64,000 bases of DNA from a virus. The DNA lies in IMG/VR virus record IMGVR_UViG_3300010348_000599. One strand, 5' to 3'. The notes under the pieces are model-generated. The model saw nothing but the letters and a program-made list of their open reading frames with translations. It was not told the DNA's origin and ran no database searches. Made by a program: the position numbers and the translations under genes. Positions 3,889 through 46,930 of the stretch are shown here, in pieces. How positions within the stretch are numbered: the stretch's first letter is position 1; each line of letters begins with the position of its first letter.

Positions 3889-3918
3889 AATTAAAATATC
3901 CTTGTATCTATAGTATAC

Positions 3919-6822
3919 TTATTTTTTATTTGAATTGCCACGAGCTGGAGTTACAGGTGTTTTCGGAATTGGAAATCCTTTTTCTGTCATCATTTTTCGT
4001 AAGGCATCTCTTGCTTCTCGTTTATCAACATCTGTTATTTTTTCTTGTTTTTCAATTGCTATTAACATTGCAGTCATTTTTTCAGCGACTGTTTTTTGAT
4101 ACTCCAACATTTGTTCGTTGTAATATGGTATCATTTCTTTTGTTTTGTCATTAGCGATTTCTGTTTTAGCGTTAGATATTGATTTTGCACTGGAATCAAT
4201 AAATTCTTGCGCATAGTTAGTAAATTGTCGAGCTAATAATTTTGACACTGGTGCATCTTTTATCGAGAACAAATCTAATTTTGATGGATTCTGCAGTAAA
4301 TTGTCAACATTATACAAATCATAACCATAATCAAAAGTGCTAGTTCTTTTGAACGCTAAATTTTCTCTTTGCGATACTATTACTTTACCAGCAAATACCT
4401 TGAGTGTGTCCACAGTTGGATCTACTGTGTTTACTCCGATGTTATATAATGCTAACGCTTTTGTGGTTGTTTGATCGAAGACTTTCACACTTTTATCGAA
4501 AGATTGGGCGAAGTGTGATAACGATTCATTTTCACTTTTATTATTAGCTTGGGCAGGATTATTTGTATATTTTCTAGCATCTTTGGTAATGAATGGATAC
4601 AAACTCTCAAATAATGACGACAGCGCCGGTGACATTTTGGAAAATTCAGATACCAGTATATTTTGAGCATTAGCGCCTTTTGTTGGACTATAAACATTTA
4701 TCATTGCTGACTGTTGTTTTTCTATAATAGATCTAAACTTTGGATCCTTTATAAACTCTGTTGTTAACTTTTGTTGTTCAAGTCCTTTAGCACCAGCTAA
4801 TAAACCAAATTTTTTAGCAATACTATCATCAGCGCCAAGTATTTTTGCATAATGCTGGGCGTATACCTGATTTGTAACTTGATCCACAAAATCCCCTTTG
4901 GCGTTTGATAAAATTGATTTATTCAATGCTTTTGTCGCTTCTGTATTTGCACCTAATGTTCTACCCAGTAATAGAAAATTATCTGTAAGATTCATAAATT
5001 CATCTGCACCAACTTGATTTATTTGGGCAGTTGCATATAAACCATCAGCAATCTCACCATAATAATCTATCAATTCTTTAGGTAGCATTCCTGTTTTGTA
5101 TGATACGTCCATTATTCCATCTGATTCCGTTAAAGCTTTTTTAATAGCATCAGCAGTTGGTAAAATACCCATTTTCGCTAAACTATCTGTTAAAGCTGAG
5201 TATGTTTCAGCTTGATAATCAGAATCACCACCTATTAATTGAGAAAAAGATAATTGTTTCCCACCATAATTAAGCATTTCAACTTGGGGTAAATTTGATA
5301 TTCCTTTAATATAGTCAGTTGGAATGTTCATAAATTTTCTGAATTGTTCAACACCCAACCGTTCTCCACCTATTGCTGTATTTGTATTTCTATTTTTATA
5401 TTTCCATTCAGCTATACTTGTATTAGATAAACCTGTTCCTATACTATCTTGAAAATTAGATAACATGCTTCGCATGTTAACACCATATTTTTGTACAGCT
5501 TTTTGATCTTCGACTATTTCTTTAATCAATCCCACGGAGAGATCAGCCGTAAACTTAATAGTTTTTAAAGCAGAGGTTATCCCTGCTATCGCTGGGACTC
5601 TTTCAATCATTTTCTTACCAAAATCTCCAAACGCATCATTTAAACTACTCTTATCACCTTCTTTGTTTTTTCCTGTTTCTAGTGTACGTTTTAAATCTTC
5701 TAAGAAAGTTCGAAAGTCATCTCTAAAAGATGGCTTATTTTTTGTCATACGTGAGAGTACTGAACTAGATTCTTCACGTAAAGCGGTAGCGGTTTTTGTT
5801 ACCTCATCAATAAATTCCTCCATACGCTCTGGTGTTTTTTGTACTACTTTATCCCACCTATCCAAGTTCATTTGCAATTTTTCACGCTGAGCTTGTAGAA
5901 TGTTTGACATAGCTATATCTTCTTCGGCAAATATATCACCTCTTGTTTCAGCAAGATGGTTTATTTGCTCCATATTTTTACCAATTTCTTTCAACATCAC
6001 ATCAAGAGCAGATACTTCTTTTCGTTTATTGCCGATGTTTTGATTTGAATCTTCAACAGCTTGGTTGAAATCTTGAACATGGAGGGCCGTTTTGCCCATT
6101 GCAATAATAAAATCATCCAATGATCTAGACATATTTGTTGATGGTGATAATCCTCTAATTGTGTCTCTCAATGCCCTCACAGCTAGCGCACGATCTGGAT
6201 CTTGCTTACTCATAGTTTCTCTCGTGTGAGTAAGTGTTTCTTTTATTTCTTTTTCTATTGCTGGTAATAAAGCTTTCAATTCACGTAATCTTAATGAAGC
6301 ACGTTTTCTTGCATCTATTTCGGCTTGACCCTTTCCTTTATTTTTTTTAATATCTTCCTGTAATTTTTTGGATTCTTCCTGTATTGATGATAATCGTCTA
6401 AATGCGTTAGATGATTTAGAAGCGAATTTGTCCATTTCTTGATAAAAACCATAAATCGTTTTTGAACTGTCTCCCACAGATTTAGCTAATGATTCGGATG
6501 CATATTTCATGCTATTATTATATGTACCTTGTTCTTTGATGATTTTAATATACATATCATTAACACTACGTATCACTTTTAATTCATGTGCACGTAATTT
6601 TAATTCTTGTTGAAGAATTTTAGTTAAGTCACGTTCACGTTTAACTCTATCATAGATAAATTTATCTTCGTGCAACACATTATTTTTGTTTTTTGTATTA
6701 CTGCCACTTCCACTATTTTGACGTTGCATTTCTTTATTATATTCAGACACAATAGATGGCATGCTACTTATAAATTTACTCACAATTGAATTGGAAAGAT
6801 TTGTTATGTCTGTTGGAGTCAT
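3919..6822 (-). CDS. Large helical/coiled-coil protein, probable tape measure protein
   Basis: 967 aa, helical composition, late TAAATA at 6848-6853; divergent neighbour of the gp26/gp51-like pair once the IS is removed. Confidence 0.55.
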   Translation of the reverse strand: MTPTDITNLSNSIVSKFISSMPSIVSEYNKEMQRQNSGSGSNTKNKNNVLHEDKFIYDRVKRERDLTKILQQELKLRAHELKVIRSVNDMYIKIIKEQGTYNNSMKYASESLAKSVGDSSKTIYGFYQEMDKFASKSSNAFRRLSSIQEESKKLQEDIKKNKGKGQAEIDARKRASLRLRELKALLPAIEKEIKETLTHTRETMSKQDPDRALAVRALRDTIRGLSPSTNMSRSLDDFIIAMGKTALHVQDFNQAVEDSNQNIGNKRKEVSALDVMLKEIGKNMEQINHLAETRGDIFAEEDIAMSNILQAQREKLQMNLDRWDKVVQKTPERMEEFIDEVTKTATALREESSSVLSRMTKNKPSFRDDFRTFLEDLKRTLETGKNKEGDKSSLNDAFGDFGKKMIERVPAIAGITSALKTIKFTADLSVGLIKEIVEDQKAVQKYGVNMRSMLSNFQDSIGTGLSNTSIAEWKYKNRNTNTAIGGERLGVEQFRKFMNIPTDYIKGISNLPQVEMLNYGGKQLSFSQLIGGDSDYQAETYSALTDSLAKMGILPTADAIKKALTESDGIMDVSYKTGMLPKELIDYYGEIADGLYATAQINQVGADEFMNLTDNFLLLGRTLGANTEATKALNKSILSNAKGDFVDQVTNQVYAQHYAKILGADDSIAKKFGLLAGAKGLEQQKLTTEFIKDPKFRSIIEKQQSAMINVYSPTKGANAQNILVSEFSKMSPALSSLFESLYPFITKDARKYTNNPAQANNKSENESLSHFAQSFDKSVKVFDQTTTKALALYNIGVNTVDPTVDTLKVFAGKVIVSQRENLAFKRTSTFDYGYDLYNVDNLLQNPSKLDLFSIKDAPVSKLLARQFTNYAQEFIDSSAKSISNAKTEIANDKTKEMIPYYNEQMLEYQKTVAEKMTAMLIAIEKQEKITDVDKREARDALRKMMTEKGFPIPKTPVTPARGNSNKK

Positions 6823-6840
6823 TGTATGATTTTAGTTTGT

Positions 6841-6962
6841 ATGTATCTATTTAATGTTTGGTGAACTTACCCACACCTGAAGGTGTGGGCTTCTCAACGA
6901 TGGTTGCAGCTTAAGCTGCAACCAATTTTTGGTGTTGAGCAATCCCCGCCATTCCAGCGGTT
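6841..6962 (-). ncRNA. TnpB omegaRNA (reRNA): scaffold 6962-6861 plus about 20-nt guide CAAACAUUAAAUAGAUACAU
   Basis: Overlaps the tnpB 3' end, multi-hairpin, ends at the right-end TCAC; 85/102 nt identical (counted by eye) to 11291-11392. True 5' end unknown. Confidence 0.8.
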
Positions 6963-8014
6963 CTGATATTGATTGCCGCATTTAGATCTCTACTCATTTC
7001 TAAATTACAACAATCGCATTTATATATGCGTTCCGACAAAAGTATTTTTGATTTGACATTTCCGCAATTGCTACATTTCTTCGTAGATGGAAAATATCTA
7101 TCAATTACAAAACATTTTTTGCCATATAACTCGCATTTATATTGAATCATTTTTCGAAATTCATAAAAATATGAATCTTTCTTCAAGTGACCAATAAAAT
7201 CCTTAACGGAAAGATCTTCTAAGCATACGAAATCATAGTCTTTTACAATTTGCAAACTAAGTTTATGATAAAAATCTTTACGTTGATTTCTAATGTGTAA
7301 GTGAATTTTACTCAACTTCTTTTTATATAAATTGAATCTAGAACTATTCTTACATGCTCGACTCATCTTTCTTGAATACCTAACTATTTGATTTTGGCTT
7401 TCTTTCAAAAATTTAGGTATTGAAATTTCGTTTGTATCTGATAATACAAAAGTTTTACTATTTAAGTCAATTCCAATTGACTTGTTTATATCCAATTTTG
7501 TATTTGCTATTACTTCTTTGGTGCAATGAAAAATAATAAAATATTTAAAATTTTCATACTTAATAGTGCAAGATTTGAAATTGGTAGGAAAAGACCTATG
7601 AAATTTACACTTTAAATTACCCAATTTAGGTAATTTGATTGTTGAATAATCCATATCCAAATGTTTATCATTAATCATTAGAATATTAATGGATTTAACT
7701 GGTTGTCTTTTGCTTTTAAATTTCGGAAAACCTTTTTCTTTTTTGAATGATGCTTTCATTGCTTTTTCAAGATTTTTTAAAGTTTGTTGGAGAGATGTAG
7801 ATGGTGAATCATTTAACCATATCAACTCTTTTTTCAGCTTTGTTAAATCTGTACAATTTTGGTAGAAAAAATTAAATTTATTGGTTGATTTATGCGTTTC
7901 AATTTCTTTATTCAAAAAGTAATTCCAAACAAATCTTGATTGACCAAAAATATTAGCCAATTGATTTTGTTGAGATTTATTTGGATAGCATTCAAATTTG
8001 AAATTAAGATTCAA
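6911..8014 (-). CDS. tnpB: RNA-guided endonuclease TnpB
   Basis: N-terminal FGQSRFVWN, GFPKFKSK, RuvC-I GIDL, RuvC-II LEDL, zinc ribbon CSNC...CDCC, RuvC-III RDLNAA; TTG start. Confidence 0.95.
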   Translation of the reverse strand: MNLNFKFECYPNKSQQNQLANIFGQSRFVWNYFLNKEIETHKSTNKFNFFYQNCTDLTKLKKELIWLNDSPSTSLQQTLKNLEKAMKASFKKEKGFPKFKSKRQPVKSINILMINDKHLDMDYSTIKLPKLGNLKCKFHRSFPTNFKSCTIKYENFKYFIIFHCTKEVIANTKLDINKSIGIDLNSKTFVLSDTNEISIPKFLKESQNQIVRYSRKMSRACKNSSRFNLYKKKLSKIHLHIRNQRKDFYHKLSLQIVKDYDFVCLEDLSVKDFIGHLKKDSYFYEFRKMIQYKCELYGKKCFVIDRYFPSTKKCSNCGNVKSKILLSERIYKCDCCNLEMSRDLNAAINIRTAGMAGIAQHQKLVAA

Positions 8015-8042
8015 TTGAAACCAATAAAGAAAAATTGTTACT

Positions 8043-8050
8043 TATTTATA
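8043..8050 (-). promoter_or_regulatory. T4-type late promoter TATAAATA upstream of tnpB, inside the element's left end
   Basis: Exact TATAAATA about 30 nt upstream of the tnpB start; TAAATA retained at the homologous position of the second element (11239-11244). Confidence 0.55.
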
Positions 8051-8182
8051 TCTAATAATTTTATAGGTAAGTGAATATTTTATCACTGCCCTAAAGAACA
8101 GGGCTTTCATATTCATCTTTCTTGGTAAAATAATAGTTGACCATTAATTTTTAATACACTAAATCATAACAAATAAGACTGT

Positions 8183-8983
8183 ATGTGTATGTCATTATTA
8201 GCAAAACTCGAACGAATTCCTGGTGAAATTTGTAGATTACCATCTCATGGGATGGGTTACGACCTTGATATGTTTGATGATACTGTAACAAATGGGGATG
8301 TTATGGTTTATCCTGTATCGAGTTATGATGAGATTATCCTTAAAACCCCTGAAAAGTTATTATCAGGAACCGCAATTTTCGAAGTTTTTAGTCGTCGTAT
8401 TCCATCAATTAAACATCCTGAAAAATTATTTCATAAAGATATTGATTTTTTGATGGCAGTGTTGAGAAAAGTTTCGTACGGGGATGAATTACAAATTTCA
8501 TATAACCATGAATGTAAAGAAAATTCCAAAGAACATAACTATATTGTTAATGTTAATAATTTTTTAAGTCAAACTAAAAGAATTGACCCAACCAGTATTC
8601 AAAATACGTTTACCTTAGAAAATGGACAAGTAGTAAAATTAGGCTCAATGTTGTTTGCTGATATGTTGGAATTAACGCAACTTAGATTAAAAATGATGAA
8701 TCAAGAAATTAGTAACACTGATGGACTCATTCTTCAATATGAACAAACAGCATGTGATGCATTATCACGTTCTATTATTAGTGTAGATGGTGTTGAGGAT
8801 AAAGATCAAATCAAAGAATGGTTGTTTAATATTCCTGTCAGTTTTAGAGAGATTTTAAACAGTCAGATTGAAAGTTTTAATTCTTCTTGGGGAATGGATA
8901 CAGAACAATTTGTAACTTGTAAAGATTGTGGTGAAAAAATATCACTTAAACCCGTAGTGAATCCTGTAAGTTTTTTTATGTAA
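8183..8983 (+). CDS. gp26: T4 gp26-like baseplate hub / tail assembly chaperone
   Basis: LPSHG N-terminus, DEIILKTPEKLLSG, DIDFLM..LRKVSYG, C-terminal CxxC and NPVSFF ending typical of this family. Confidence 0.75.
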   Translation: MCMSLLAKLERIPGEICRLPSHGMGYDLDMFDDTVTNGDVMVYPVSSYDEIILKTPEKLLSGTAIFEVFSRRIPSIKHPEKLFHKDIDFLMAVLRKVSYGDELQISYNHECKENSKEHNYIVNVNNFLSQTKRIDPTSIQNTFTLENGQVVKLGSMLFADMLELTQLRLKMMNQEISNTDGLILQYEQTACDALSRSIISVDGVEDKDQIKEWLFNIPVSFREILNSQIESFNSSWGMDTEQFVTCKDCGEKISLKPVVNPVSFFM

Positions 8984-9007
8984 CCCTGAGATATGGTACA
9001 TCTCAGG
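8971..9007 (+). promoter_or_regulatory. Putative programmed -1 ribosomal frameshift signal
   Basis: T TTT TTT heptamer (8971-8977), 7-nt spacer, 8-bp hairpin CCTGAGAT/ATCTCAGG (8985-9007); the -1 frame is open into ORF 9019-9216. Confidence 0.65.
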
Positions 9008-9018
9008 ACAAACAAAAA

Positions 9019-9216
9019 ATGATAACAGATTTGCATATCAGTATTCGTGAAATAATTAAAGAATGTCAACGTATAGCATGGTATAGTAGGGGTTCAATAC
9101 AATACGACTCTGCATATGATTTAACCCCATTTGAACGTCAAAATTTTATGCTAATGATTGAAGAAATTGTCAAAGATCAATGTAAGGGTGATGTATCAAG
9201 GATGATAATTTTTTAA
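9019..9216 (+). CDS. T4 gp51-like baseplate hub assembly protein (possibly the C-terminal part of a frameshift fusion)
   Basis: WYSRGSIQYDSAYDLTPFER motif; directly follows the gp26-like gene in the -1 frame. Confidence 0.65.
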   Translation: MITDLHISIREIIKECQRIAWYSRGSIQYDSAYDLTPFERQNFMLMIEEIVKDQCKGDVSRMIIF

Positions 9217-9234
9217 TTATTATCCTTGATAGTG

Positions 9235-9438
9235 TCAAGCCCAACACCCTGCATATTTTCGAATTAATTCAACAGCATCTTTAATTCTCTCAATATCTTC
9301 ACGCCATAGTTGAGCTTTAATTTCATTGCCATCTTCTTCATATTGTTGAGCGATTATTTCTTTTTCATCAGCTTTTGATTCCATTACGTGGGCGGTATTG
9401 AGTACCATTTCATTGATGATAGTATATTTGTCTTTCAT
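9235..9438 (-). CDS. Hypothetical protein
   Basis: 67-aa ORF with GAGGT Shine-Dalgarno upstream. Confidence 0.6.
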   Translation of the reverse strand: MKDKYTIINEMVLNTAHVMESKADEKEIIAQQYEEDGNEIKAQLWREDIERIKDAVELIRKYAGCWA

Positions 9439-9487
9439 AGTAACACCTCATCATTAATGTTGATAACTTGTTCGATTTGTGCGTTTT

Positions 9488-11083
9488 TCATAATTTAGTT
9501 ACCGCCTCGTGCCAATATTCAGGAAACATATAGTATGCATTTTTGATTAATTGGTCATAGCAACTATCAAGCATATAAGTAACGCCATAGTCATTAACAT
9601 CTCTAACAACACGTCCTGCTCCTTGTACTATATTAATAACTGCTTGCTTCATATACCATTCTTGTGAAACATCAGCTCTTTTCTTAACCCATTGATCACC
9701 CAAATATGGGTAAGGAACTTTCACAAAAATTGCAAAACGTCCTAGATCACCATTTAAATCCAATCCTTCCGTGATACTTGGTGAAATAAGTAATTTAACT
9801 TCATGTATATTACCAATAAAATCTTGAATTACCTTATCTCTATTACCATCATTATGCTCATATAAAATATGTGTTGTACCACGATTTGTTAATTCTTCGT
9901 GTAACCATTTGGACATTGCGAAACTAGACGTATGTATGATACCATTTTCGTTTTTATGTAAGTCCAACAAGTCCAACACAGTATTGATCATGTTTTCCTT
10001 TAGAATATCATCATTATTCCAGTTTGCGTTTACCTTACCAATGGGTAAGTAAACAAACTGTCTATTTTCTTTAGCAAATGTTGTCGGTAACCTTAATATC
10101 TCACACTCTTCAGATGGTATACCCAATTCTTCAATAGTTTCTAAAATATTTGGGAATGTACCACTTAAAAATACCATTTTCTCACAATAATTTTGCATAT
10201 ATTTGATACAATTTTCAGCACCAAATAAATGTTTAATTTTCCATCCATTTTCCATAGTTACAATTGTGTGTTTGAAATCAAAGTCATTTTTTGACAATTT
10301 AACCATATCACCCATTTTCAGTAAATCTTCAAAACCACTATTATAGCGTTGTATAATCTTAGCTTGATTTACATCCAATTCACCTCTTTCGCCCATAATA
10401 TATGGGTATTCATCTTCCATGAATGATAAATATTCACGCAATAAAGGAATTGCGACTTCATTAAAATATCTACATAAATGTTCATATGTGTCGATATCCA
10501 TATAATCAACTTCATAATACCCACATTTTTCAACAGTCCACTCTAATGTATTGAAATCTGTGAGAAATGATTCTAATTTATGTGCTTCATCGCAAATTAT
10601 TGATGAAAATCTAACATCTCTAAAATTTTCTGAATATTCCTTTAGTGATAGAAATAAATCATAATTCATAACACATAATTGAGATGCTAATGCTTTTTCT
10701 CTTGCTTTGTCGTATGGACAAGCCTTACATTTCGTACCAAATAAAGCACCTGTTTCACAGTTAGTGTTTTTACTACTACACTTATAATTCTGTCTACCAT
10801 AAAAAGATGCAAGATTTATTTTGTTTCTTTTTGATACATCTTCGTATTGTTTTTGTAGTATTTTTTGTGGTGTTAGAATACATGTATTACCACCAATAAG
10901 TTTGTTAATGTAATTACCAATTGTAATTGCAATATTTGATTTACCTGAGCCAACAGATGCCTCTATAAAGAAGTATTTCTTTTTGGGTTCTTTTAACAGA
11001 AATGTTTCTATCCATGCGAAACTAATTTCTTGTACCTCTCTTGGCTGAGATGTAAAACACCAAGAATCAAAGATATCTGTCAT
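9488..11083 (-). CDS. SF2 helicase, DinG/Rad3-like
   Basis: Q motif, Walker A VGSGKS, Cys cluster, DEAH, EGLDL, KVPYP, QGAGRVVR. Confidence 0.9.
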   Translation of the reverse strand: MTDIFDSWCFTSQPREVQEISFAWIETFLLKEPKKKYFFIEASVGSGKSNIAITIGNYINKLIGGNTCILTPQKILQKQYEDVSKRNKINLASFYGRQNYKCSSKNTNCETGALFGTKCKACPYDKAREKALASQLCVMNYDLFLSLKEYSENFRDVRFSSIICDEAHKLESFLTDFNTLEWTVEKCGYYEVDYMDIDTYEHLCRYFNEVAIPLLREYLSFMEDEYPYIMGERGELDVNQAKIIQRYNSGFEDLLKMGDMVKLSKNDFDFKHTIVTMENGWKIKHLFGAENCIKYMQNYCEKMVFLSGTFPNILETIEELGIPSEECEILRLPTTFAKENRQFVYLPIGKVNANWNNDDILKENMINTVLDLLDLHKNENGIIHTSSFAMSKWLHEELTNRGTTHILYEHNDGNRDKVIQDFIGNIHEVKLLISPSITEGLDLNGDLGRFAIFVKVPYPYLGDQWVKKRADVSQEWYMKQAVINIVQGAGRVVRDVNDYGVTYMLDSCYDQLIKNAYYMFPEYWHEAVTKL

Positions 11084-11166
11084 ATATTTTTTCCATTAAG
11101 ATAAAAATGAAATATAATTATAACAAAAATACAAAGGTAAGTAAAAAACCAAATATTATTTTTTAC

Positions 11167-11392
11167 AAATCTTGAATATGTCATCCCTGTTCTTTAGGAC
11201 AGGGATGACATATTCATTTACCCAAAATATTTTTGAGATAAATAAGTATATTAATTGAATGAAAACCAAATTCAGTTACTTTAAAAATACAACCGCTGGA
11301 ATGGCGGGGATTGCTCAACAATAAAGTCTGGTAGTGGCTTAAGCCACTACCATCGTTGAGAAGCCCATTTCTTTAGATATGGGTAAGTTCAC
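11167..11392 (+). mobile_element. 226-bp non-autonomous IS200/IS605 derivative (left end + omegaRNA/right end, tnpB deleted)
   Basis: Follows TTAC (11163-11166) and ends in TCAC. Left part homologous to the left end of 6861-8124, right part homologous to its omegaRNA. Joining the flanks restores a copy of the neighbouring repeat unit. Confidence 0.85.
11259..11324 (+). pseudogene. 21-codon tnpB relic (MKTKFSYFKNTTAGMAGIAQQ)
   Basis: TAGMAGIAQ is identical to a stretch near the TnpB C-terminus and lies in frame with an ATG near the homologous start position. Confidence 0.55.
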
Positions 11393-11412
11393 GTGTGTTT
11401 GTTGTACACATA
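11291..11412 (+). ncRNA. Stand-alone TnpB omegaRNA: scaffold 11291-11392 plus guide GUGUGUUUGUUGUACACAUA
   Basis: Ungapped 102-nt match to the tnpB-linked scaffold with five compensatory base-pair changes in two hairpins. Confidence 0.78.
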
Positions 11413-11630
11413 AAAAACAATATTATTATAATAGTTGGTTCACTTCGTTCACAAAAATAATTATTAATTTCATTACATTCAATTAATAATTATTTTTAAT
11501 AAAAAATTTTATTTTTATGTGTGTCTGTATAACAATCACACATAAAAAACAATATTATTATAATAGTTGGTTCACTTCGTTCACAAAAAATGATTACTAA
11601 TTTCATTACATTCAATTAGTAATCATTTTT
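11393..11630. repeat. Two direct repeats (period 132 bp) built of hairpins with TCAYTWCRTTC motifs
   Basis: 11406-11497 nearly identical to 11538-11630; differences are compensatory changes in a 17-bp stem with invariant loop TCATTACATTC. Confidence 0.9.
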
Positions 11631-11682
11631 ATATAAATAATTAATATAAATAATTAATATAAATAATTAATATAAATAATTA
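11631..11682. repeat. Four perfect tandem 13-mers ATATAAATAATTA
   Basis: Read directly; 100% AT. Confidence 0.95.
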
Positions 11683-11707
11683 TAATCATCATTTTTCATA
11701 ATAATTA

Positions 11708-11736
11708 ATTATACACCTGTTTAAAAAACGTGTCAA
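11708..11736 (-). promoter_or_regulatory. Perfect sigma70 consensus promoter TTGACA-N17-TATAAT pointing into the repeat region
   Basis: Minus strand reads TTGACA CGTTTTTTAAACAGGTG TATAAT. Confidence 0.8.
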
Positions 11737-11836
11737 CATGGTTTTAAAAACCAACTTTTAGATAACAAGTTCTTTAAAATTTTTATCTGTTTTTAAAAAC
11801 AAATTTAATTTTTGATATAAAAATCATTTAAAAACA

Positions 11837-11930
11837 CGTTAAAAATCGTTTTTAACGTACGATAATTTTAAAAACGTATATTTTATCAAAAATAGATGTA
11901 CCACACCGTAAAAACGATTTTTACGCGTGG
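11837..11930. repeat. Two related palindromes (11837-11859 and 11901-11930)
   Basis: ACGTTAAAAA-TCG-TTTTTAACGT and CGTAAAAA-CGA-TTTTTACG are near-inverted copies; the second may also terminate the resolvase transcript. Confidence 0.6.
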
Positions 11931-11931
11931 T

Positions 11932-12525
11932 TTAAGAATTAATAAATTGGTTTAACAAATTATTATAAATTGAATGTTCTTTTTTTGCTTCTTCCAAAAA
12001 AGCATTAATCATCGAGGTTTGCTCGTCGATTGATAATAGTGTGAAGTTTTTAATCACATCTAGTCCTGTTTCAAGGTCAACAATAACAAATCCTTTATAT
12101 CCACAATAATGTGGAATGTGTTGATTTATCACACATGAGGGAATCGCCATACCAGTAAATATTCTTGTGGTTTTAAATATAACCAATGATAATGTATTTG
12201 TATTGATACCATCATGTATACTTTTACTCAACCATTCATCCATTTTATTATCACCAGTTGAAGATAATAAATTATGATACAGAGGACTTTTGTCGTAGTG
12301 TTTGCATTCAATATTGAATGCAAACCATTTAGGGACCATTATATCACCAGCTAATGCGTTTTTCACTTCTGATGACATGCCTTTGCGTTTACCCCAATTG
12401 GATTTTCCAACGAAGGCTCCACTTCCAAAAGCTCTTGAAAATTCGTCAGTTGCAAAAAAATCATTTAACTTTTTTGCAACGTCGCGTTCAAAAGTACTAC
12501 CTTTGATTTTTGATTTACTGGGCAT
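11932..12525 (-). CDS. Holliday junction resolvase-like PD-(D/E)xK nuclease
   Basis: SKIKGSTFERDVA, SGA, GDI, IECK motifs. Confidence 0.85.
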   Translation of the reverse strand: MPSKSKIKGSTFERDVAKKLNDFFATDEFSRAFGSGAFVGKSNWGKRKGMSSEVKNALAGDIMVPKWFAFNIECKHYDKSPLYHNLLSSTGDNKMDEWLSKSIHDGINTNTLSLVIFKTTRIFTGMAIPSCVINQHIPHYCGYKGFVIVDLETGLDVIKNFTLLSIDEQTSMINAFLEEAKKEHSIYNNLLNQFINS

Positions 12526-12528
12526 AGT

Positions 12529-12822
12529 TTATTCATCCATGAAATCATTTGTACTTCTAGTTGTTAGTATTTCCTTTGTTGCTAGAGATACAACACTATC
12601 ATGCCAAATTACATTATATGGTTCATTTAAAATTCTTAAATCGTCAATATCTCTCAAAGTTAATACTTGTCCAGCAATAGCTGGACAAGTATTAACGAAA
12701 AATCGTTTAATCATTTCATTCGCCACGACAATAAAACATTTTATTTGTGATTGTGTTACTGCTGTGATAATATGGTCAATATCCCGGGAACTAGAATAGA
12801 TAAATTCTTTGATTGCTGACAT
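12529..12822 (-). CDS. Hypothetical protein
   Basis: 97-aa ORF packed between the gp47-46 fusion and the resolvase with 2-3 nt gaps. Confidence 0.6.
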   Translation of the reverse strand: MSAIKEFIYSSSRDIDHIITAVTQSQIKCFIVVANEMIKRFFVNTCPAIAGQVLTLRDIDDLRILNEPYNVIWHDSVVSLATKEILTTRSTNDFMDE

Positions 12823-12824
12823 TA

Positions 12825-15644
12825 CTAAGACTCCTGTTGTATGTTGGAAAAATTGTTTTGTAGTGTTACTTTAAATTTACTATCATAATGAATATGAGTA
12901 ACCTCTTCTCTATGTGTTACAATGAAAATTTTGATATTTTCTTTCTTGGACTTCTCACGAATTAATTTAACAGTATTTGCAACACCATTAGCACTTAAAC
13001 CTGTATCCAAACACTCATCTAACATTAACAGATTGATTGGTGAATGCATTCTAGCTATTACATCTCTAAATGCCAAACATAACGCAATATTTACTCTAGC
13101 AATTTGACCATTTGAAATGGTACTAAAAGCAAATGCACGACCATTTAATTCAATTTTTGTTAGTAATTCTTCTGTGAAGTATACTAAATGAGGTAATTTA
13201 AGTTGGGTCAAATATTCATTGATTTTGGTATTCAAAAAAGGTAAGTTTTGTTTTAGTAGTGATTTACGCACAAAGCTGTCTTTTTTGGTCAACAACTTAA
13301 CCAAAAATTCACTATGTTCTATTTCTTTCGTCAAGTTTTGTTTTTTTGAATAATCAATGTCAATTAATGTTTGATCGATTGTTTCTAAGGCTATCTCAAA
13401 AGGATTTGATGATTTACGTAACATTTCGAGTTTGCTTTCTAGTACAGCTTTTTCCGAGAACACACGTGAAATATTTGGATATTTATCAACATATTGAAGT
13501 TTTGTGACATCTATTTCAATATTTTTCAAAATATTTTCATGCTCGAGTTTTTCTTGTGTTAATTCACTTATCATATCATTATTTTCAATAATAATACGTT
13601 GTTTGTTTTTTAATTTTTGCTCATCAGTGTGAACTTGCTTGCAAAATGGGCAAATATTTTGTGATAGAGCTGTAATCTCAATATTCAGAGATTGTTGTTC
13701 TTTTGATAAATCATTTATATCACGAGTAATCTCTTTAATTATTGATTGTGTCTTTTTAGCATTATCTCTTAAAAGATTAATAGTATCAATATCAGAAATA
13801 ATACGCTCAACATTTTCAGGAATTGATTGTAATTGATTTTGAATACGTTCAACATCTTTCAGTTTGGTTTGTTCCCAATTATCAAAATTATTAATTAAAT
13901 TTTGCATAGTGGACATTTTTTGGTTGTTTAGCTGCTCTTTCTGATTTAAAATTTCCAACTCAATCTTTAATTCATCCTTCATAGATTTAGTGAGTTTTTT
14001 GATGTTTTCAGCTTTCGTTGTTAATTCTTTTAATCGAAATAAATCTTCCAATATATCTGTTTGAGACAATTCTGTTGAAGATGTAACAGGTAAGGAAAAA
14101 AAAGGAGTATTAGAAGCTGAAAATAAAACCATTCTAGTAAATGTTTCAAACTGCAATCCAATAATATCTTTAATAAATTTATTGGTGTTTGCTGCAGAAT
14201 CTTTGGTTAAATCTTTAACCACGATACCATTTTGATCAATGATTTCAAAAGTTACATCATTAATACTTTTTTTGCCAAATTTTCTACGTCTTGTTATTTT
14301 ATACAGAATTTGTGATTTTTCAAATACTAGTTCACAATACAGGTTTGCTTTATTAATGTTGTTAATCATATCATCGAATGTAACATTGTTTTTAATAACT
14401 CTATCATACAAACAATATGAAACAGCGTTCAAAATGGTTGATTTACCAGTACCAGATTTACATTTATCATTATCATCATAAACTACATCATGATTTTCAC
14501 CATAAATCAAATTAAATAATCCAGCATCATCAAACACAACCGTATTCAAATTATTACCATAAGAGTAAAGATTTTTAAAACTCAACTGTTTGAAAGTTAT
14601 AGCATCTGAAGTTGAATTAAATGTATCAAATTCACCACTTTTGTTTAAAATGGATTTTAATAGTGTGTTATCAATATCAGGTGATACAATATTATCAATC
14701 ATCTGATCTAATAGCTGTTTGAGTGTTGAAAAATCAGACACGTTTATTTGCTCATCCGCATCCAATGAAAACATATCTTCAAATGCTATTTTAGGTTCTT
14801 CGCATAAAACTTCTCTGATACCTGTTAACGATAGTTGTTTTTTAACTTCAACTAATTGTTCTTGTTCAACAATAACATCCATTAAACATTTAACACGTGA
14901 TTTGGGTGGAAATGATACTTTATCGATTTCAGAATATTTTATACGATGATATGTTGGCTGATCAGGCCACGCTAAGAAAGAAAGTTGCAAATCAGTTTCA
15001 TTAAGGATACATATCCCACGTTCTGTATCATTAACATCTGAAAAATCCATCGGAAATGTATTTCCAATATAAGTAGTATTTTCTGATGATTGGCGTTTGT
15101 GATAGTGACCACTTAATATTAATTTTACATACTTAAAACTATTATGAGAAGGACCACCTTCCTTTTTTGTGTTGTATGATGTTATACTAAACCCTTCAAA
15201 TTCAAAATGACCCGCCCAAATAGGAATATTTTTATATTGATGTAATGAATCATACTCTTCTTCAAACAAAAATGGGCAAAATAACATATTATCATGTATA
15301 GTAGGTTTATCAACAATAATAAAATTTGATAATTCATTATAATGGACTGTTGAAAAATGTTCTCTTGAATAACGTTTATATAAATCATGATTACCAATAC
15401 AAAACAATATTGGTATGTTTAATGAATTTAATAATTGAGCACTATCATACCCATAAGTCATGGTCATAACATCGATAGCGTTTCTATTTTCAAACCAATC
15501 ACCGAGAAAACCAATTCTTGTGATCTCAGGATGATTGATACAATAATCATACACCCATTTAACAAAATTATAACAATCTGTGTTATGCTCTATAGAATTA
15601 TTGCGACGTCCAAAATGAATATCTGTAAAAAAAAGTGTAGACAT
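12825..15644 (-). CDS. Fused recombination endonuclease gp47-gp46 (Mre11/SbcD + Rad50/SbcC)
   Basis: N-terminal DIH, GD, GNHD, GH, GHYH phosphoesterase motifs; C-terminal Walker A GTGKST, zinc hook CPFC, signature SNGQ, Walker B LMLDE, VTH; one continuous ORF. Confidence 0.92.
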   Translation of the reverse strand: MSTLFFTDIHFGRRNNSIEHNTDCYNFVKWVYDYCINHPEITRIGFLGDWFENRNAIDVMTMTYGYDSAQLLNSLNIPILFCIGNHDLYKRYSREHFSTVHYNELSNFIIVDKPTIHDNMLFCPFLFEEEYDSLHQYKNIPIWAGHFEFEGFSITSYNTKKEGGPSHNSFKYVKLILSGHYHKRQSSENTTYIGNTFPMDFSDVNDTERGICILNETDLQLSFLAWPDQPTYHRIKYSEIDKVSFPPKSRVKCLMDVIVEQEQLVEVKKQLSLTGIREVLCEEPKIAFEDMFSLDADEQINVSDFSTLKQLLDQMIDNIVSPDIDNTLLKSILNKSGEFDTFNSTSDAITFKQLSFKNLYSYGNNLNTVVFDDAGLFNLIYGENHDVVYDDNDKCKSGTGKSTILNAVSYCLYDRVIKNNVTFDDMINNINKANLYCELVFEKSQILYKITRRRKFGKKSINDVTFEIIDQNGIVVKDLTKDSAANTNKFIKDIIGLQFETFTRMVLFSASNTPFFSLPVTSSTELSQTDILEDLFRLKELTTKAENIKKLTKSMKDELKIELEILNQKEQLNNQKMSTMQNLINNFDNWEQTKLKDVERIQNQLQSIPENVERIISDIDTINLLRDNAKKTQSIIKEITRDINDLSKEQQSLNIEITALSQNICPFCKQVHTDEQKLKNKQRIIIENNDMISELTQEKLEHENILKNIEIDVTKLQYVDKYPNISRVFSEKAVLESKLEMLRKSSNPFEIALETIDQTLIDIDYSKKQNLTKEIEHSEFLVKLLTKKDSFVRKSLLKQNLPFLNTKINEYLTQLKLPHLVYFTEELLTKIELNGRAFAFSTISNGQIARVNIALCLAFRDVIARMHSPINLLMLDECLDTGLSANGVANTVKLIREKSKKENIKIFIVTHREEVTHIHYDSKFKVTLQNNFSNIQQES

Positions 15645-15689
15645 AAAATTCCCGTTTGATAAAAGTATTGTGTTATGTTGTATTATATC

Positions 15690-16232
15690 CTAATCAATCC
15701 GTTCTTCACAGATTAATGTCTGGTTTTCATCATGTTCTTCAGATATATCTTTTTCTGAATCAATGTCGGATATTTCATCATACTTCGGCAACGGTACTCC
15801 ATCGATTGTTTCATCACGATCACCTCCAATCGAGAATCCACGAACATTTTCATAATCTTCTTCAGAAAAACCAAACGATGGATTTAATCCATTATCTACC
15901 ATAATAGAATCTCGACCACGTTGTTCTTTTTTCTCCACACGTAATACATGATTAAATGCATTTTTTACAAAAGATGTGTAGTATGCAAAACAATTTGAAT
16001 ATTTCAAATCAAATTTATACCATCCCTTACATAAAGTTAATATAGCTGTACCTTTCATTTCATCCAAATACGTATATGAAGCATAGCATGATTTCTTAGC
16101 GATATTGTCAACAAGTTGAATAAACATTCGACCCATTTCTTCTGTCATTTTTCCTTGTGCTAAGCTTTTTTCCAATTCTGCTCGCAAATCCTTGTTTGTT
16201 AAATAAATTACTGGTTTTCGTTGAATACTCAT
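15690..16232 (-). CDS. gp55: Late-transcription sigma factor, T4 gp55-like
   Basis: YLTNKDL, YTYLDEM, KFD...NCFAYYT...NAF...EKK motifs; next to gp47/46 as in T4. Start moved to the ATG at 16232. Confidence 0.85.
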   Translation of the reverse strand: MSIQRKPVIYLTNKDLRAELEKSLAQGKMTEEMGRMFIQLVDNIAKKSCYASYTYLDEMKGTAILTLCKGWYKFDLKYSNCFAYYTSFVKNAFNHVLRVEKKEQRGRDSIMVDNGLNPSFGFSEEDYENVRGFSIGGDRDETIDGVPLPKYDEISDIDSEKDISEEHDENQTLICEERID

Positions 16233-16257
16233 ATGGCTAATCCATTTTTCCCCCAAC

Positions 16258-16286
16258 TATATACACTATTTTATGTATATTTGCAA
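16258..16286 (-). promoter_or_regulatory. Sigma70-like promoter for the gp55-gp47/46 operon
   Basis: TTGCAA-N17-TATATA on the minus strand. Confidence 0.45.
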
Positions 16287-16291
16287 CACAT

Positions 16292-16297
16292 TAAATA
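16292..16297 (+). promoter_or_regulatory. Late promoter TAAATA(C) of the baseplate operon (representative of a recurrent motif)
   Basis: Same motif precedes genes at 21108, 24457, 36350, 38292, 43482, 46901, 48821, 49875, 51210 (+) and 526, 2126, 6848, 33444, 36326 (-). Confidence 0.7.
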
Positions 16298-16313
16298 CAC
16301 ATAAAACATTTTT

Positions 16314-16898
16314 ATGGCTTTTATTATACCAAAAGAACAGGGTACGGTTAACCAACATTTTCGATCAATGATTACACTGTCAGATGGAAAAAATATGTTG
16401 GTATTTGACTGTAATCCGAAAATTAACGAAACAACAAATGTTACTTATAACAACAAAAACGTGTCTCAGTTACCAACAAGTATTAATTACTTTGACAGTG
16501 TTTCAGCCCGAACGTTTAACTTATCAGATATAAAATTTATATCAAGAACACGTCAAGAGGCTCAAAACAATAATAATGCAATATATTATTTGAGATATTT
16601 AACTAAACCTAATTTTGGTATGCTTAGTAATGGATTACCACCAAAAGTATTGCTTTTAAGTGGATTTAATTCATCAAATAATTCTGAATCTATTGGAGCG
16701 TTAAATAGTATTCCAGTAGTTATCACTAATTTGGATATTGATTGGCCAAATGATTGTGATTTTATCCCTGATAATAATGGAGTAGTTACACCAATTATCA
16801 GAACAGGTTCTATATCTCTCTTGGAATTTCATAGCCCCAAACAAATTTCTGAGTTTGATTTGCAAAAATTCTTAAATGGTCAATTATTAGGTTGGTAA
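16314..16898 (+). CDS. Tail-tube-initiator/baseplate protein (tube-like fold)
   Basis: First gene of the baseplate operon; PPKVLLLSG and IPVVITNLDIDWPND resemble contractile-tail tube-initiator proteins. Confidence 0.6.
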   Translation: MAFIIPKEQGTVNQHFRSMITLSDGKNMLVFDCNPKINETTNVTYNNKNVSQLPTSINYFDSVSARTFNLSDIKFISRTRQEAQNNNNAIYYLRYLTKPNFGMLSNGLPPKVLLLSGFNSSNNSESIGALNSIPVVITNLDIDWPNDCDFIPDNNGVVTPIIRTGSISLLEFHSPKQISEFDLQKFLNGQLLGW

Positions 16899-16900
16899 AA

Positions 16901-17164
16901 ATGAAAAGATTAGAAAGTGGTGTAATTTTATCAGAGAATGGAAAACAATTTTGGGTTGGCAAACAAATAGAACAACATTATACAGATACCGTTTTGGTGT
17001 TGGTACCAAAATATAACACTCAACCAGATTTGTTAGCATACGAGTTTTATGGTAACACTGTTTACGAATGGTTGATACTGTATTACAATAACATAACTGA
17101 TCCTTGGACAGAATTTGTTACTGGTAAAACAATTAGATTACCAGTTTTGGATAGAATTAAGTGA
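16901..17164 (+). CDS. gp53: Baseplate wedge protein, gp53/LysM-like
   Basis: PDLLAYEFYG...WLILYYNNI.DP...G..IRLP. Confidence 0.85.
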   Translation: MKRLESGVILSENGKQFWVGKQIEQHYTDTVLVLVPKYNTQPDLLAYEFYGNTVYEWLILYYNNITDPWTEFVTGKTIRLPVLDRIK

Positions 17165-17171
17165 GTTTATA

Positions 17172-19616: not shown

Positions 19617-19624
19617 GAACAAAT

Positions 19625-24427: not shown

Positions 24428-24485
24428 CCCTGTTTCTTAAAACAGGGAAACTTTGTTAAATATTTTTATCAAAGTTATAACGGTT

Positions 24486-46135: not shown

Positions 46136-46870
46136 ATGTTTTCTTATAATCCTATTCTCGATACTGATAGTTACAAATTTTCCATGTTTTTACAATACCC
46201 ACCACGAACAACTAATATTTTTAGTTATATAGAATCTCGTGGTGGTATTTTTGATAAAACAGTATTTTTTGGACTTCAGGTTTTTATCAAAAACTTTTTA
46301 TTGACACGAATAACTAAAGAAATGGTATATGAAGCTGAGCGAATTATTACATTACACGGTGAACCTTTCAATACCGTTGGATGGTTATATATTGTTGAGA
46401 AACACAATGGTTTCTTACCTGTTTTAATTAAAAGTGTAAAAGAAGGTACTGTGATTCCAACAAAGAATGTTTTGGTGACAGTTGAAGTTACTGATCCAGA
46501 ATGTTTTTGGGTAACAACATTTATTGAAACGGCGTTGTTGCGTTCTGTATGGTATCCAACAACTGTGGCTACAAATAGTTATCATTGTAAACAAATTATT
46601 CTTAAAGCCTTAGAAAAATCAGGAACACCATCTTCTATTGATTTTAAGTTACATGATTTTGGTGCACGTGGTGTTAGTTCTTATGAATCTGCTGCAATCG
46701 GTGGGTTAGCACATTTAATCAACTTCAAGGGAACAGATACTGTTCCCGCATTAATAGCTGCAATAAATTATTATGATTCTAAAGAAGTGGTTGGGTGGTC
46801 AATTCCAGCAAGTGAACATAGTGTTGCTTGTAGTTGGTCTGGTACTATTCCAGAAATTAAATTAAAATAA
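46136..46870 (+). CDS. nadV: Nicotinamide phosphoribosyltransferase, N-terminal part
   Basis: DTDSYK, YIESRGG, VWYPTTVAT, LHDFGARG, GTD, PASEHS. Confidence 0.9.
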   Translation: MFSYNPILDTDSYKFSMFLQYPPRTTNIFSYIESRGGIFDKTVFFGLQVFIKNFLLTRITKEMVYEAERIITLHGEPFNTVGWLYIVEKHNGFLPVLIKSVKEGTVIPTKNVLVTVEVTDPECFWVTTFIETALLRSVWYPTTVATNSYHCKQIILKALEKSGTPSSIDFKLHDFGARGVSSYESAAIGGLAHLINFKGTDTVPALIAAINYYDSKEVVGWSIPASEHSVACSWSGTIPEIKLK

Positions 46871-46930
46871 CTGCTCTGTTGCAGGAATTATTAAATAGAA
46901 TAAATACATTCATATTTAAGATAGATATGA

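What the first reader, a model, noticed from the sequence alone, without database searches (positions are those of the whole stretch)
11167..11412. Stand-alone, structurally conserved TnpB omegaRNA with its own late promoter: a possible one-nuclease, two-guide system in a phage
Seen: 3 kb from an intact tnpB lies a 226-bp element with both IS ends but no tnpB. Its 102-nt scaffold aligns without gaps to the tnpB-linked one with 17 differences. Ten of these form five compensatory pairs (GGTTGCAGC/GCTGCAACC becomes GGTAGTGGC/GCCACTACC; CCCACACCT/AGGTGTGGG becomes CCCATTTCT/AGATATGGG). The CCGC/GCGG and CTCAAC/GTTGAG helices are invariant. It keeps TAAATA about 50 nt upstream and carries a different guide (GTGTGTTTGTTGTACAC). 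Known: TnpB uses a right-end RNA whose guide comes from flanking DNA. Inference: this RNA is expressed late and loads the neighbouring TnpB in trans, giving the phage a second programmed target. The covariation could instead predate the tnpB deletion.
Basis: partly seen in the sequence, partly recalled or inferred. Interest (0 to 1): 0.88.

Follow-up and report, generated by a model that had tools for sequence, protein, structure and literature searches.

The report
Guide-RNA-only mini-transposon in a jumbo phage
This 226-bp stretch is a gene-less miniature copy of the neighbouring tnpB insertion sequence that keeps both transposon ends and a structurally conserved guide-RNA scaffold; it likely borrows the neighbour's TnpB nuclease to defend and spread its own insertion site, a kind of element already described in bacteria and here found as a multi-copy family in phage-like DNA.

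Summary
Window 11167-11392 (+) is a 226-bp, ORF-less derivative of the tnpB-only IS200/IS605-type element at 6861-8130 (-). Its 102-nt right-end scaffold aligns without gaps to the tnpB-linked one: 17 differences, 5 compensatory pairs, 1 broken pair.

New here: it belongs to a family. In AT-rich metagenome contigs, several with phage-type genes, I found 18 complete scaffolds. Seven are tnpB-linked and 11 are orphans at 11 different sites. Eight orphans share the window copy's architecture. Two filled/empty allele pairs show precise insertion after TTTAT with no duplication. Orphans alone keep 95.1% of cells paired, and 9 of 35 pairs changed on both sides.

So it is a PATE-type mini-transposon carrying a selected omegaRNA module. 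Trans-loading by the intact TnpB is likely but untested. Its predicted target is simply its own empty site in phages lacking it.

The idea is already in print: standalone omegaRNAs that work in trans, and PATEs encoding omegaRNAs. The "late promoter" is plausible, not shown. I rate it a new member of a known kind, of moderate interest because of the phage setting.

The parts
11161..11166 (+). 5' flank / transposon-adjacent motif region (TTTTAC); the boundary is uncertain by one base
   Evidence: Both window copies are preceded by TTTTAC. Relatives with verified empty sites insert after TTTAT and the element starts with C.
11167..11234 (+). Left end with a 21-bp-arm palindrome (11173-11216)
   Evidence: 62 nt, 81% match to the left end of the full element (I2; I16 for the palindrome). 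Conserved in 8 main-type copies, pi 0.07.
11237..11250 (+). Promoter-like motif GATAAATAAGTA (TAAATA core)
   Evidence: TAAATA is kept in all 18 left ends compared. The region has pi 0.036. The related TAAATAC lies 15-27 nt upstream of 9 gene starts in the window. Function is inferred.
11252..11278 (+). PATE-specific leader hairpin, loop GAAAACCAA
   Evidence: Predicted by RNAalifold on 10 orphans; 5 of 9 pairs changed on both sides between subtypes and the loop is invariant. Present in the single-sequence fold. Role unknown.
11291..11392 (+). 102-nt omegaRNA scaffold / right end (helices P1-P5), ending GTTCAC
   Evidence: Covariance model hit of 118.5 bits. All 55 columns invariant across 17 copies are intact here.
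11393..11409 (+). Predicted guide, taken from flanking DNA (GTGTGTTTGTTGTACAC)
   Evidence: Assigned by position immediately 3' of the right end. All 18 copies have different sequence here. Inferred by analogy with ISDra2 (PMC8612924, passages).
6861..8130 (-). Full-length tnpB-only IS200/IS605-type element: left end, TATAAATA motif at 8043-8050, tnpB 8014..6911, right-end scaffold 6962..6861
   Evidence: A relative (L006) that is 95.4% identical over 6,058 bp has it at the same site.
6843..6860 (-). Predicted guide of the full-length element (CAAACATTAAATAGATAC)
   Evidence: Flank 3' of the right end; unique in the window; identical in L006.

Best explanation
The element is a 226-bp non-autonomous (PATE-type) deletion derivative of the neighbouring tnpB-only IS200/IS605-family insertion sequence, and it likely produces an omegaRNA that the neighbouring TnpB would load in trans. 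Shown: it has the left end, a promoter-like TAAATA motif, a family-specific leader hairpin and the complete 102-nt right-end scaffold, but no gene. It is one of at least 11 orphan copies at different sites in AT-rich contigs, several with phage-type genes, and relatives show precise presence/absence alleles. The fold is maintained by compensatory changes among the orphans themselves. Inferred: transcription would start at the left-end motif and run through the scaffold into the flank, giving a guide of about 16-20 nt (GTGTGTTTGTTGTACAC...). TnpB from the full-length copy 3 kb away, which keeps its catalytic residues, would bind this RNA. The complex would cut DNA that has the T-rich 5' motif joined directly to that flank, that is, the same site in a genome lacking the element, such as a co-infecting relative or an excision product. 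Recombinational repair from the element-bearing genome would then restore or spread the element. Movement to new sites would need a Y1 TnpA transposase supplied from elsewhere; none is in the DNA I could see.
For: Anatomy.

Family and mobility:
- One metagenome scan gave 13 loci, and one genome-collection scan gave 1 true and 1 chance hit.
- There are 18 complete scaffolds: 7 tnpB-linked (TnpB 90-97% identical to the window's) and 11 orphans, each with a different flank.
- Eight orphans share the window copy's junctions, with flank diversity near 0.6 against 0.086 inside the element.
- Empty-site alleles: L014 vs L012 (CTTTAT|AGCTG, unambiguous) and L003 vs L011. Neither shows a target duplication.

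Selection on structure:
- All 17 aligned copies: 95.6% of cells paired, 11 of 35 pairs changed on both sides, 0 of 500 shuffles as high, and 33-49% paired when partners are slid.
- The 10 orphans alone: 95.1% paired, 9 pairs changed on both sides, 0 of 500.
- The 30 nt that were TnpB-coding have pi 0.008 in 8 orphans, where they no longer code, against 0.28 in the adjacent linker.
- Three orphan subtypes with different middles all start the retained block at the same base, AACCGCTGG.
- Fixed G.U pairs in P1, P2 and P5 fit the sense strand.

Nuclease: the TnpB aligns to ISDra2 TnpB residues 6-374 (E 4.7e-44), with D, E and D at the positions of D191, E278 and D361, and both CxxC pairs present. 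D191A and E278A kill ISDra2 activity (PMC8612924, passages); D361 is recalled.

Scaffold size is plausible: the ISDra2 functional scaffold is 116 nt plus a 16-nt guide (PMC10097598, passages).

Trans use is established for the family (PMC10691335; 10.1101/2023.11.20.567912, legend of fig. S10C).
Against: - No expression or binding data.
- The orphan lacks the ~15-bp hairpin that lies just upstream of the 102-nt block inside tnpB in all 7 full-length copies. If TnpB needs that stem, the orphan RNA would be defective. A different hairpin sits at a similar distance instead.
- The promoter motif differs from the full-length element's TATAAATA by loss of the first T, and from the phage's enriched TAAATAC in the last base.
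- The predicted guide folds on itself.
- Part of the covariation could be carried by recombination of whole hairpin alleles between copies, so independent events are fewer than the cell counts. P5 doubles as the hairpin a TnpA would recognise in single-stranded DNA. For P4 the wobble test does not tell the strands apart (5 sense vs 4 antisense).
- No TnpA was found among 61 window ORFs (of 69 ORFs of 90 aa or more, plus two short ORFs below 90 aa) or 55 of 81 locus ORFs. How new sites are reached is therefore open.
- Only the window and L006 carry phage structural genes. The other loci are called phage-like from composition and from 12 of 26 proteins hitting PHROGs.
Confidence: 0.6

Rival explanations
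1. The element moves or once moved, but its RNA does nothing. The hairpins are kept because a Y1 TnpA transposase recognises them in single-stranded DNA during excision and insertion, and because the copies are young.
For: The left-end and right-end hairpins resemble each other (CCCTGTTC TTTAG GACAGGG vs CCCACTCC TTTAG GTGTGGG), as in IS200/IS605 ends. Insertion is precise, after a fixed T-rich motif and without duplication, which is the signature of TnpA. Most copies have a T.T mismatch in P5 (13 of 17), typical of an imperfect palindrome. Overall diversity among the 8 main-type copies is only 0.086.
Against: As recalled from the IS608 literature, TnpA needs only the subterminal hairpin and cleavage site. 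That does not explain a near-invariant P1/P2/P3 block (pi 0.008) in non-coding context, 7 of 10 covarying pairs in P4 among orphans, or three subtypes all keeping exactly the 102-nt block. Truncated right-end fragments that keep P4-P5 but lack P1 and P3a exist (L012 5281-5382, L003 5369-5466), so decay does happen, yet 11 orphans are complete. Fixed G.U pairs are tolerated better in RNA than in DNA.
Confidence: 0.2
2. The element has been co-opted by the phage as a regulatory piece of the 848-bp intergenic region. It would act as a terminator against transcription entering from the minus-strand genes, or as a promoter-bearing cassette, independent of TnpB.
For: On the antisense strand the P4 hairpin is followed by a T-rich run and is called terminator-like in both window copies. 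The element lies antisense to both neighbouring genes (9488-11083 and 11932-12525, both minus). P4 wobble counts do not favour either strand.
Against: The same hairpin and T-run exist in every full-length copy, where they form the tnpB stop region, so the feature is inherited rather than adapted. The 11 orphans sit in 11 unrelated contexts. AT-rich palindromes with T-runs already lie between the upstream gene and the element (11453-11500, 11586-11632). It does not explain conservation of P1-P3, the leader hairpin or the TAAATA motif.
Confidence: 0.08
3. One reading: the phage uses the orphan RNA as a weapon with a target of its own choosing (host or rival DNA other than the element's own empty site).
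For: Altae-Tran et al. [quoted passage not shown] A TTTAT-flanked near-match to the guide lies 130 nt away on the minus strand (11525-11546, 3 mismatches).
Against: The guide is simply the flank of the insertion, as in all 18 copies, each with a different flank. The near-match is a paralogue of the repeat unit the element inserted into and has a mismatch at guide position 6. Five of 100 shuffles give as many matches. The exact guide plus flank gave 0 matches in viral contigs.
Confidence: 0.05

Closest known systems
PATEs (palindrome-associated transposable elements) of IS200/IS605 carrying omegaRNAs, as noted in Geobacillus stearothermophilus by Meers et al. 2023 (PMC10055086; passages read)
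   Same: Gene-less mini-elements with the left and right ends of co-resident tnpB elements. The right end encodes the guide-RNA scaffold, and they need TnpB (and TnpA) supplied in trans.
   Different: Here the family sits in a T4-like jumbo phage and in AT-rich contigs with phage-type genes, not a bacterial chromosome. No TnpA is in view. The orphans carry their own conserved leader hairpin and a motif resembling the phage's upstream TAAATAC motif.
Standalone omegaRNAs of OMEGA systems (Altae-Tran et al. 2021, as summarised in Altae-Tran et al. 2023, PMC10691335; introduction passage read; the 2021 paper itself not seen)
   Same: Mobilised omegaRNA loci that lack an effector, lie in the same genome as effector loci, and are reported to work in trans. 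This is the 'one nuclease, several guides' idea.
   Different: Those were described in cellular genomes and tested biochemically. Here there is no experiment, but there is covariation evidence within an orphan lineage.
ISDra2 TnpB-omegaRNA (reRNA) of Deinococcus radiodurans (PMC8612924 and PMC10097598; passages read; PDB 8bf8/8exa/8h1j matched)
   Same: TnpB of the same architecture with the catalytic residues kept. The scaffold overlaps the 3' end of tnpB and ends at the right end. The guide comes from the flank, a T-rich 5-nt motif lies 5' of the element, and the scaffold size is comparable (102 vs 116 nt).
   Different: The protein match is distant (E 4.7e-44). The scaffold has no sequence match, and Rfam has no family for it. 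The motif is TTTAT-like, not TTGAT. Whether the long-range helix P2 corresponds to the ISDra2 pseudoknot was not tested.
Free-standing homing endonuclease genes of T4-like phages (marker exclusion), as reviewed together with OMEGA systems in PMC13565253 (passages read)
   Same: Predicted outcome: a nuclease encoded by one phage cuts the element-free allele in a co-infecting relative, and repair copies the element and its flanks.
   Different: Recognition would be by RNA guide, and the copied cassette here carries no nuclease gene at all.

Membership tests
IS200/IS605-family non-autonomous element (PATE) | Left and right ends homologous to those of a full-length element in the same genome | tested here: met
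   62 nt at 81% (left end) and 102 nt at 83% (right end) to the element at 6861-8130.
IS200/IS605-family non-autonomous element (PATE) | No protein-coding gene | tested here: met
   The longest overlapping ORF is 37 aa. The short ATG frame in the leader falls in three different frames among copies.
IS200/IS605-family non-autonomous element (PATE) | Subterminal hairpins at both ends that resemble each other | tested here: met
   Left-end CCCTGTTC-TTTAG-GACAGGG and right-end P5 CCCA(C/T)T(C/T)C-TTTAG-G/A..GGG.
IS200/IS605-family non-autonomous element (PATE) | Insertion 3' of a short conserved motif, with no target-site duplication and no terminal inverted repeats | tested here: met
   Met in relatives by two filled/empty pairs. 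For the window copy no empty allele was available. Joining its flanks rebuilds a sequence like the neighbouring repeat unit (by eye).
IS200/IS605-family non-autonomous element (PATE) | Mobilised by a Y1 TnpA in trans | not testable with these tools
   No Y1_Tnp hit among 61 window ORFs or 55 of 81 locus ORFs. The rest of the phage genome and the host are not available.
TnpB omegaRNA (reRNA) | Scaffold at the right end, overlapping the 3' end of tnpB in the full-length element | tested here: met
   The tnpB stop codon lies in the P4 loop, and the scaffold covers the last 17 codons.
TnpB omegaRNA (reRNA) | Conserved secondary structure supported by covariation | tested here: met
   The covariance model scores 108-126 bits on 16 copies and 85.8 bits on the divergent L009, and 124.3 bits on L014.
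TnpB omegaRNA (reRNA) | Transcribed, with a 3' guide of about 16-20 nt from the flank | not testable with these tools
There is only a promoter-like motif.
TnpB omegaRNA (reRNA) | Bound by TnpB and directs motif-dependent DNA cleavage | not tested
   Needs experiment. All 55 columns invariant among 17 scaffolds are intact in the orphan.
TnpB RNA-guided nuclease (the partner at 6911-8014) | HTH / OrfB_IS605 (RuvC) / zinc-ribbon TNB architecture with catalytic D-E-D | tested here: met
   Pfam hits. Alignment to ISDra2 TnpB places D, E, D at positions 191/278/361 and keeps both CxxC pairs.
TldR-type nuclease-dead TnpB repressors | Loss of RuvC catalytic residues or C-terminal truncation, with a guide aimed at a promoter | tested here: not met
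   The catalytic residues and full length are kept. The guide is the insertion flank.
Rfam RNA families | Match at the gathering score | tested here: not met
   0 matches in the window. Only chance-level hits well below threshold in either region.

The most novel reading that the evidence does not exclude
Jumbo phages host a self-propagating family of 'guide-only' cassettes: each is a promoter, a leader hairpin, an omegaRNA scaffold and whatever flank it lands in. They parasitise the TnpB of full-length elements and act as RNA-programmed gene drives between co-infecting phages. Each cassette converts its own locus and drags neighbouring phage genes with it, so a single nuclease gene would drive marker exclusion at many loci at once. 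The homology breaks seen next to cassettes and right-end fragments in related contigs would be scars of this activity.
Probability: 0.3. Interest if true: 0.6.

Novelty: new member of a known kind. Interest (0 to 1): 0.42.

Why it matters
Why TnpB-family nucleases are so abundant, and what standalone guide RNAs do, are still open questions; Altae-Tran et al. 2023 say their biological role is unknown. Phage co-infection is a natural setting in which element-bearing and element-free alleles meet, so RNA-guided homing can be measured directly as biased inheritance. A phage lineage that carries one nuclease gene and several guide-only cassettes, with natural presence/absence alleles, would be a convenient test system. 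It also offers a compact TnpB (367 aa) with a natural 102-nt scaffold, and natural variation shows which stems tolerate change. None of this alters the current picture of how these elements work.

Tried and rejected
- Whole-genome searches of the window's own genome are impossible because none is held. The records behind the loci are not held either, so I could not reach the orphan's site in the 95%-identical relative L006, which stops at window position 9944.
- Viral contigs gave nothing: core scaffold exact pattern, gapped pattern, TnpB, flanking helicase, and guide plus flank.
- Isolated phages: no DNA match to 8000-20000 or to the element. TnpB homologues occur in 422 of 50,697 records, the listed best being 39.5% identical.
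- Earlier findings of this scan: none.
- One search used a wrong spacer length and found nothing; one search corrected it.
- L015 (64% GC, coding) is a chance match to the pattern, has no model hit, and was dropped.
- The tblastx comparison of loci with the window was noise apart from the element itself, so no synteny claim rests on it.
- I looked for a drop in variability upstream of the 102-nt block in 7 tnpB genes to place the RNA's 5' end. None was visible.
- TATAAATA as a general late promoter is rejected: 12 sites, only 2 just upstream of starts. TAAATAC fits better.
- A conserved micro-protein from the leader ATG is rejected because its frame differs among copies.
- The wobble test for the P4 strand was inconclusive.
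- The exact motif and boundary of the two window copies could not be fixed to the base.

Full report
**Setting.** The window is 30.5% G+C and encodes a T4-like portal, prohead protease, baseplate gp25 and gp53, T4-type RNA ligase, PhoH, NAD-dependent ligase, DHFR, topoisomerase II and RNR small subunit. Its portal is 45% identical to those of the jumbo Xanthomonas phages XacN1 and Xoo-sp13. There is no near DNA match among 50,697 isolated phage records. No whole genome is held. I read it as part of an uncultured jumbo T4-like phage.

**The observation.**
- On the minus strand, 8130-6861 is a tnpB-only IS200/IS605-type element. It has a left end with a hairpin, TATAAATA 28 nt before the TTG start, tnpB (8014-6911, 367 aa; Pfam HTH_OrfB_IS605, OrfB_IS605, Cas12f1-like_TNB) and a right end that overlaps the last 17 codons.
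- On the plus strand, 11167-11392 repeats the left end (62 nt, 81%) and the right end (102 nt, 83%) with nothing coding in between.
- The 102-nt blocks align without gaps and have 17 differences. Ten of these form five compensatory pairs in two hairpins, one breaks a pair, one is in a loop and five are in a linker.
- Random placement of 17 changes never gave five compensatory pairs in 300,000 trials, and broke 8.5 pairs on average against 1 observed.
- Both sequences fold into the same five-helix shape.

**It is one of a family.**
- A gapped pattern from the two invariant helix strands found 13 loci in metagenome contigs. In the species-genome collection it found one true hit, a 31% G+C contig of a MAG, and one chance hit that I dropped. 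All true loci are 27-33% G+C.
- Of 26 of their proteins, 12 hit phage families, among them an endolysin and an RNA ligase at E 6e-138 (Pfam).
- L006 is 95.4% identical to window 3887-9944 and has the full element at the same site with the same flank.
- In total I have 18 complete scaffolds. Seven follow a tnpB (TnpB 90-97% identical) and 11 are orphans. There are also three truncated right-end fragments.
- The loci were fetched by a scaffold pattern, so this ratio is not a genome-wide estimate.
- Eight orphans, the window's included, share the same left end, the same middle and the same junction. Sequence identity stops sharply at both ends: flank diversity is about 0.6, against 0.086 inside.
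- Two further orphans form a second subtype and one is divergent.
- The window copy is therefore not a local deletion of the neighbouring element. It belongs to a mini-element lineage that has reached at least 11 different sites.

**Mobility and ends.**
- Two pairs of related contigs carry filled and empty alleles.
- L014 reads CTTTAT|AGCTGTTACC where L012 reads CTTTAT-[CCCATC...AAGTTCAC]-AGCTGTTACC.
- L003 reads TTTTAT|CACATGTG where L011 has the element (here one C is ambiguous).
- Insertion is exact, has no target duplication and follows TTTAT. Eight of 11 orphans have TTTAT at that place.
- Together with left-end and right-end hairpins that resemble each other, this is the signature of IS200/IS605 single-strand transposition.
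- Both window copies are preceded by TTTTAC. The motif reads TTTAC or TTTTA, depending on whether the C belongs to the flank or to the element.
- I saw no Y1 transposase in 61 window ORFs or in 55 of 81 locus ORFs.

**Selection on the fold.**
- With the five helices written on the 17-copy alignment, 95.6% of cells pair and 11 of 35 pairs show changes on both sides. No shuffle of 500 reaches any of the five measures, and sliding the partners drops pairing to 33-49%.
- The 10 orphans alone give 95.1%, 9 pairs and 0 of 500.
- P4 carries most of the signal (8 of 10 pairs), including a completely different but fully complementary stem in L011b.
T43A/A58T is private to the window copy, and another orphan (L001m) has its own private double change in P4.
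- The 30 nt that encode TAGMAGIAQ in tnpB are non-coding in orphans. Yet they have diversity 0.008 in eight copies, against 0.28 in the linker beside them.
- All three orphan subtypes begin the retained block at the same base.
- Fixed G.U pairs in P1, P2 and P5 fit the sense strand. P4 is undecided.
- Caveats: hairpin alleles may be exchanged whole between copies. P5 is also the hairpin a transposase would read in DNA. On the antisense strand, P4 followed by a T-run looks like a terminator.

**The rest of the mini-element.**
- TAAATA is kept in all 18 left ends. Together with a 27-nt leader hairpin it is the most conserved part of the orphans (diversity 0.036).
- RNAalifold predicts the leader hairpin independently. 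Its 9-nt loop GAAAACCAA is invariant and 5 of its 9 pairs covary between subtypes.
- Full-length elements instead have a hairpin of about 15 bp inside tnpB, just upstream of the block.
- In this window TATAAATA is not a general upstream motif. TAAATAC is: 9 of its 19 occurrences lie 15-27 nt before a same-strand start, including genes for a prohead protease and a baseplate protein.
- The element's TAAATAA matches six of those seven bases. A phage-type promoter is therefore plausible. Its timing is unknown.

**The nuclease.** The TnpB aligns to ISDra2 TnpB over residues 6-374 (E 4.7e-44). It has D, E and D at the positions of D191, E278 and D361, and both CxxC pairs. D191A and E278A abolish ISDra2 activity (PMC8612924, passages); D361 is from memory. 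It is therefore not a nuclease-dead TldR type.

**Comparison with what is known.**
- Meers et al. 2023 (PMC10055086, passages) found PATE-like elements in Geobacillus. [quoted passage not shown]
- Altae-Tran et al. 2023 (PMC10691335, introduction passage) state that mobilised standalone omegaRNAs occur beside effector loci, were shown to work in trans, and have an unknown biological role.
- TnpB works with RNA from a separate plasmid (PMC8612924; 10.1101/2023.11.20.567912, legend).
- The ISDra2 functional scaffold is 116 nt (PMC10097598), so a 102-nt block is a credible complete scaffold.
- TnpB genes are found in phage records (422 of 50,697). A review lists co-infecting phages as targets of transposon 'non-restorative homing' (PMC13565253, Table 1 passage).
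- My searches turned up no description of a guide-only mini-element family in phage genomes. These searches cover only the held library, and I did not read supplements.

**Verdict.**
- The element is a PATE-type mini-transposon with a selected omegaRNA module. I hold that part at above 0.9. Its use of the neighbouring TnpB in trans, to cut the element-free allele of its own site, I hold at about 0.55-0.6.
- The idea of 'one nuclease, two guides' is already published for cellular genomes, so this is a new member of a known kind.
- The phage setting, the orphan-specific leader hairpin and the natural filled/empty alleles make it a reasonable experimental system, but not a surprise.

Noticed in passing
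window 525, 16292, 21108, 36350, 38292, 43482, 46901, 48821, 51210: TAAATAC lies 15-27 nt upstream of nine same-strand start codons (19 occurrences in the window). It is probably this phage's late-type promoter core, a variant of the T4 TATAAATA motif.
   Followed up: partly
window 11252-11278 (and the same place in 9 other orphan copies): A hairpin specific to the gene-less copies, with invariant loop GAAAACCAA and a covarying stem, sits 13-17 nt upstream of the scaffold. Full-length elements have a different hairpin of about 15 bp in tnpB coding DNA at a similar distance. Its role is unknown.
   Followed up: partly
window 11393-11657: Two direct repeat units of about 132 nt, including a perfect 52-nt repeat (11406-11457 / 11538-11589). 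Each has a GTGTG...CACAC hairpin, a TATAAT-like hexamer and an AT-only palindrome flanked by A- and T-runs. The mini-element is inserted at the start of the first unit. They may be small transcription units or bidirectional terminators.
   Followed up: no
window 11628-11680: Four tandem copies of a 13-nt unit containing TATAAATA.
   Followed up: no
window 11525-11546 (minus strand): TTTAT followed by GTGTGATTGTTATACAG matches the mini-element's predicted guide with 3 mismatches (positions 6, 12, 17). It is a paralogue in the second repeat unit. It would probably not be cut, but it is a natural near-cognate site.
   Followed up: partly
window 46136-48782: A nicotinamide phosphoribosyltransferase gene appears split into 46136-46870 and 48051-48782 by a 385-aa ORF with no Pfam match (46931-48088), which is preceded by TAAATAC. 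This may be an inserted mobile gene.
   Followed up: no
window 44068-45873: The PhoH-like protein carries a LAGLIDADG_3 domain (residues 284-341), suggesting an intein or a fused homing endonuclease.
   Followed up: no
window 12825-15644: A single 939-aa ORF combines Metallophos with AAA_23/SMC_N, an Mre11-Rad50-like fusion, next to a PDDEXK nuclease gene (11932-12525).
   Followed up: no
L012 5281-5382, L003 5369-5466, L013 3584-3649: Truncated right-end fragments that keep only the 3' 35-70 nt of the scaffold. In L012 vs L014, homology between the two contigs ends at the element or fragment, as if these sites were recombination breakpoints.
   Followed up: partly
L010 3329-3549 and 1815-3084: A gene-less copy lies tail-to-tail 245 bp from the right end of a full-length tnpB element. 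In L011 a divergent gene-less copy lies 2.4 kb from another.
   Followed up: no
L014 (contig of a MAG labelled Neisseriaceae): This 7.4-kb contig is 31% G+C and 92-97% identical to the phage-like metagenome contig of L012. It is probably a phage contig binned into a bacterial MAG.
   Followed up: no
window 24453-31508: A 2,351-aa ORF with no Pfam match lies among baseplate and tail genes.
   Followed up: no
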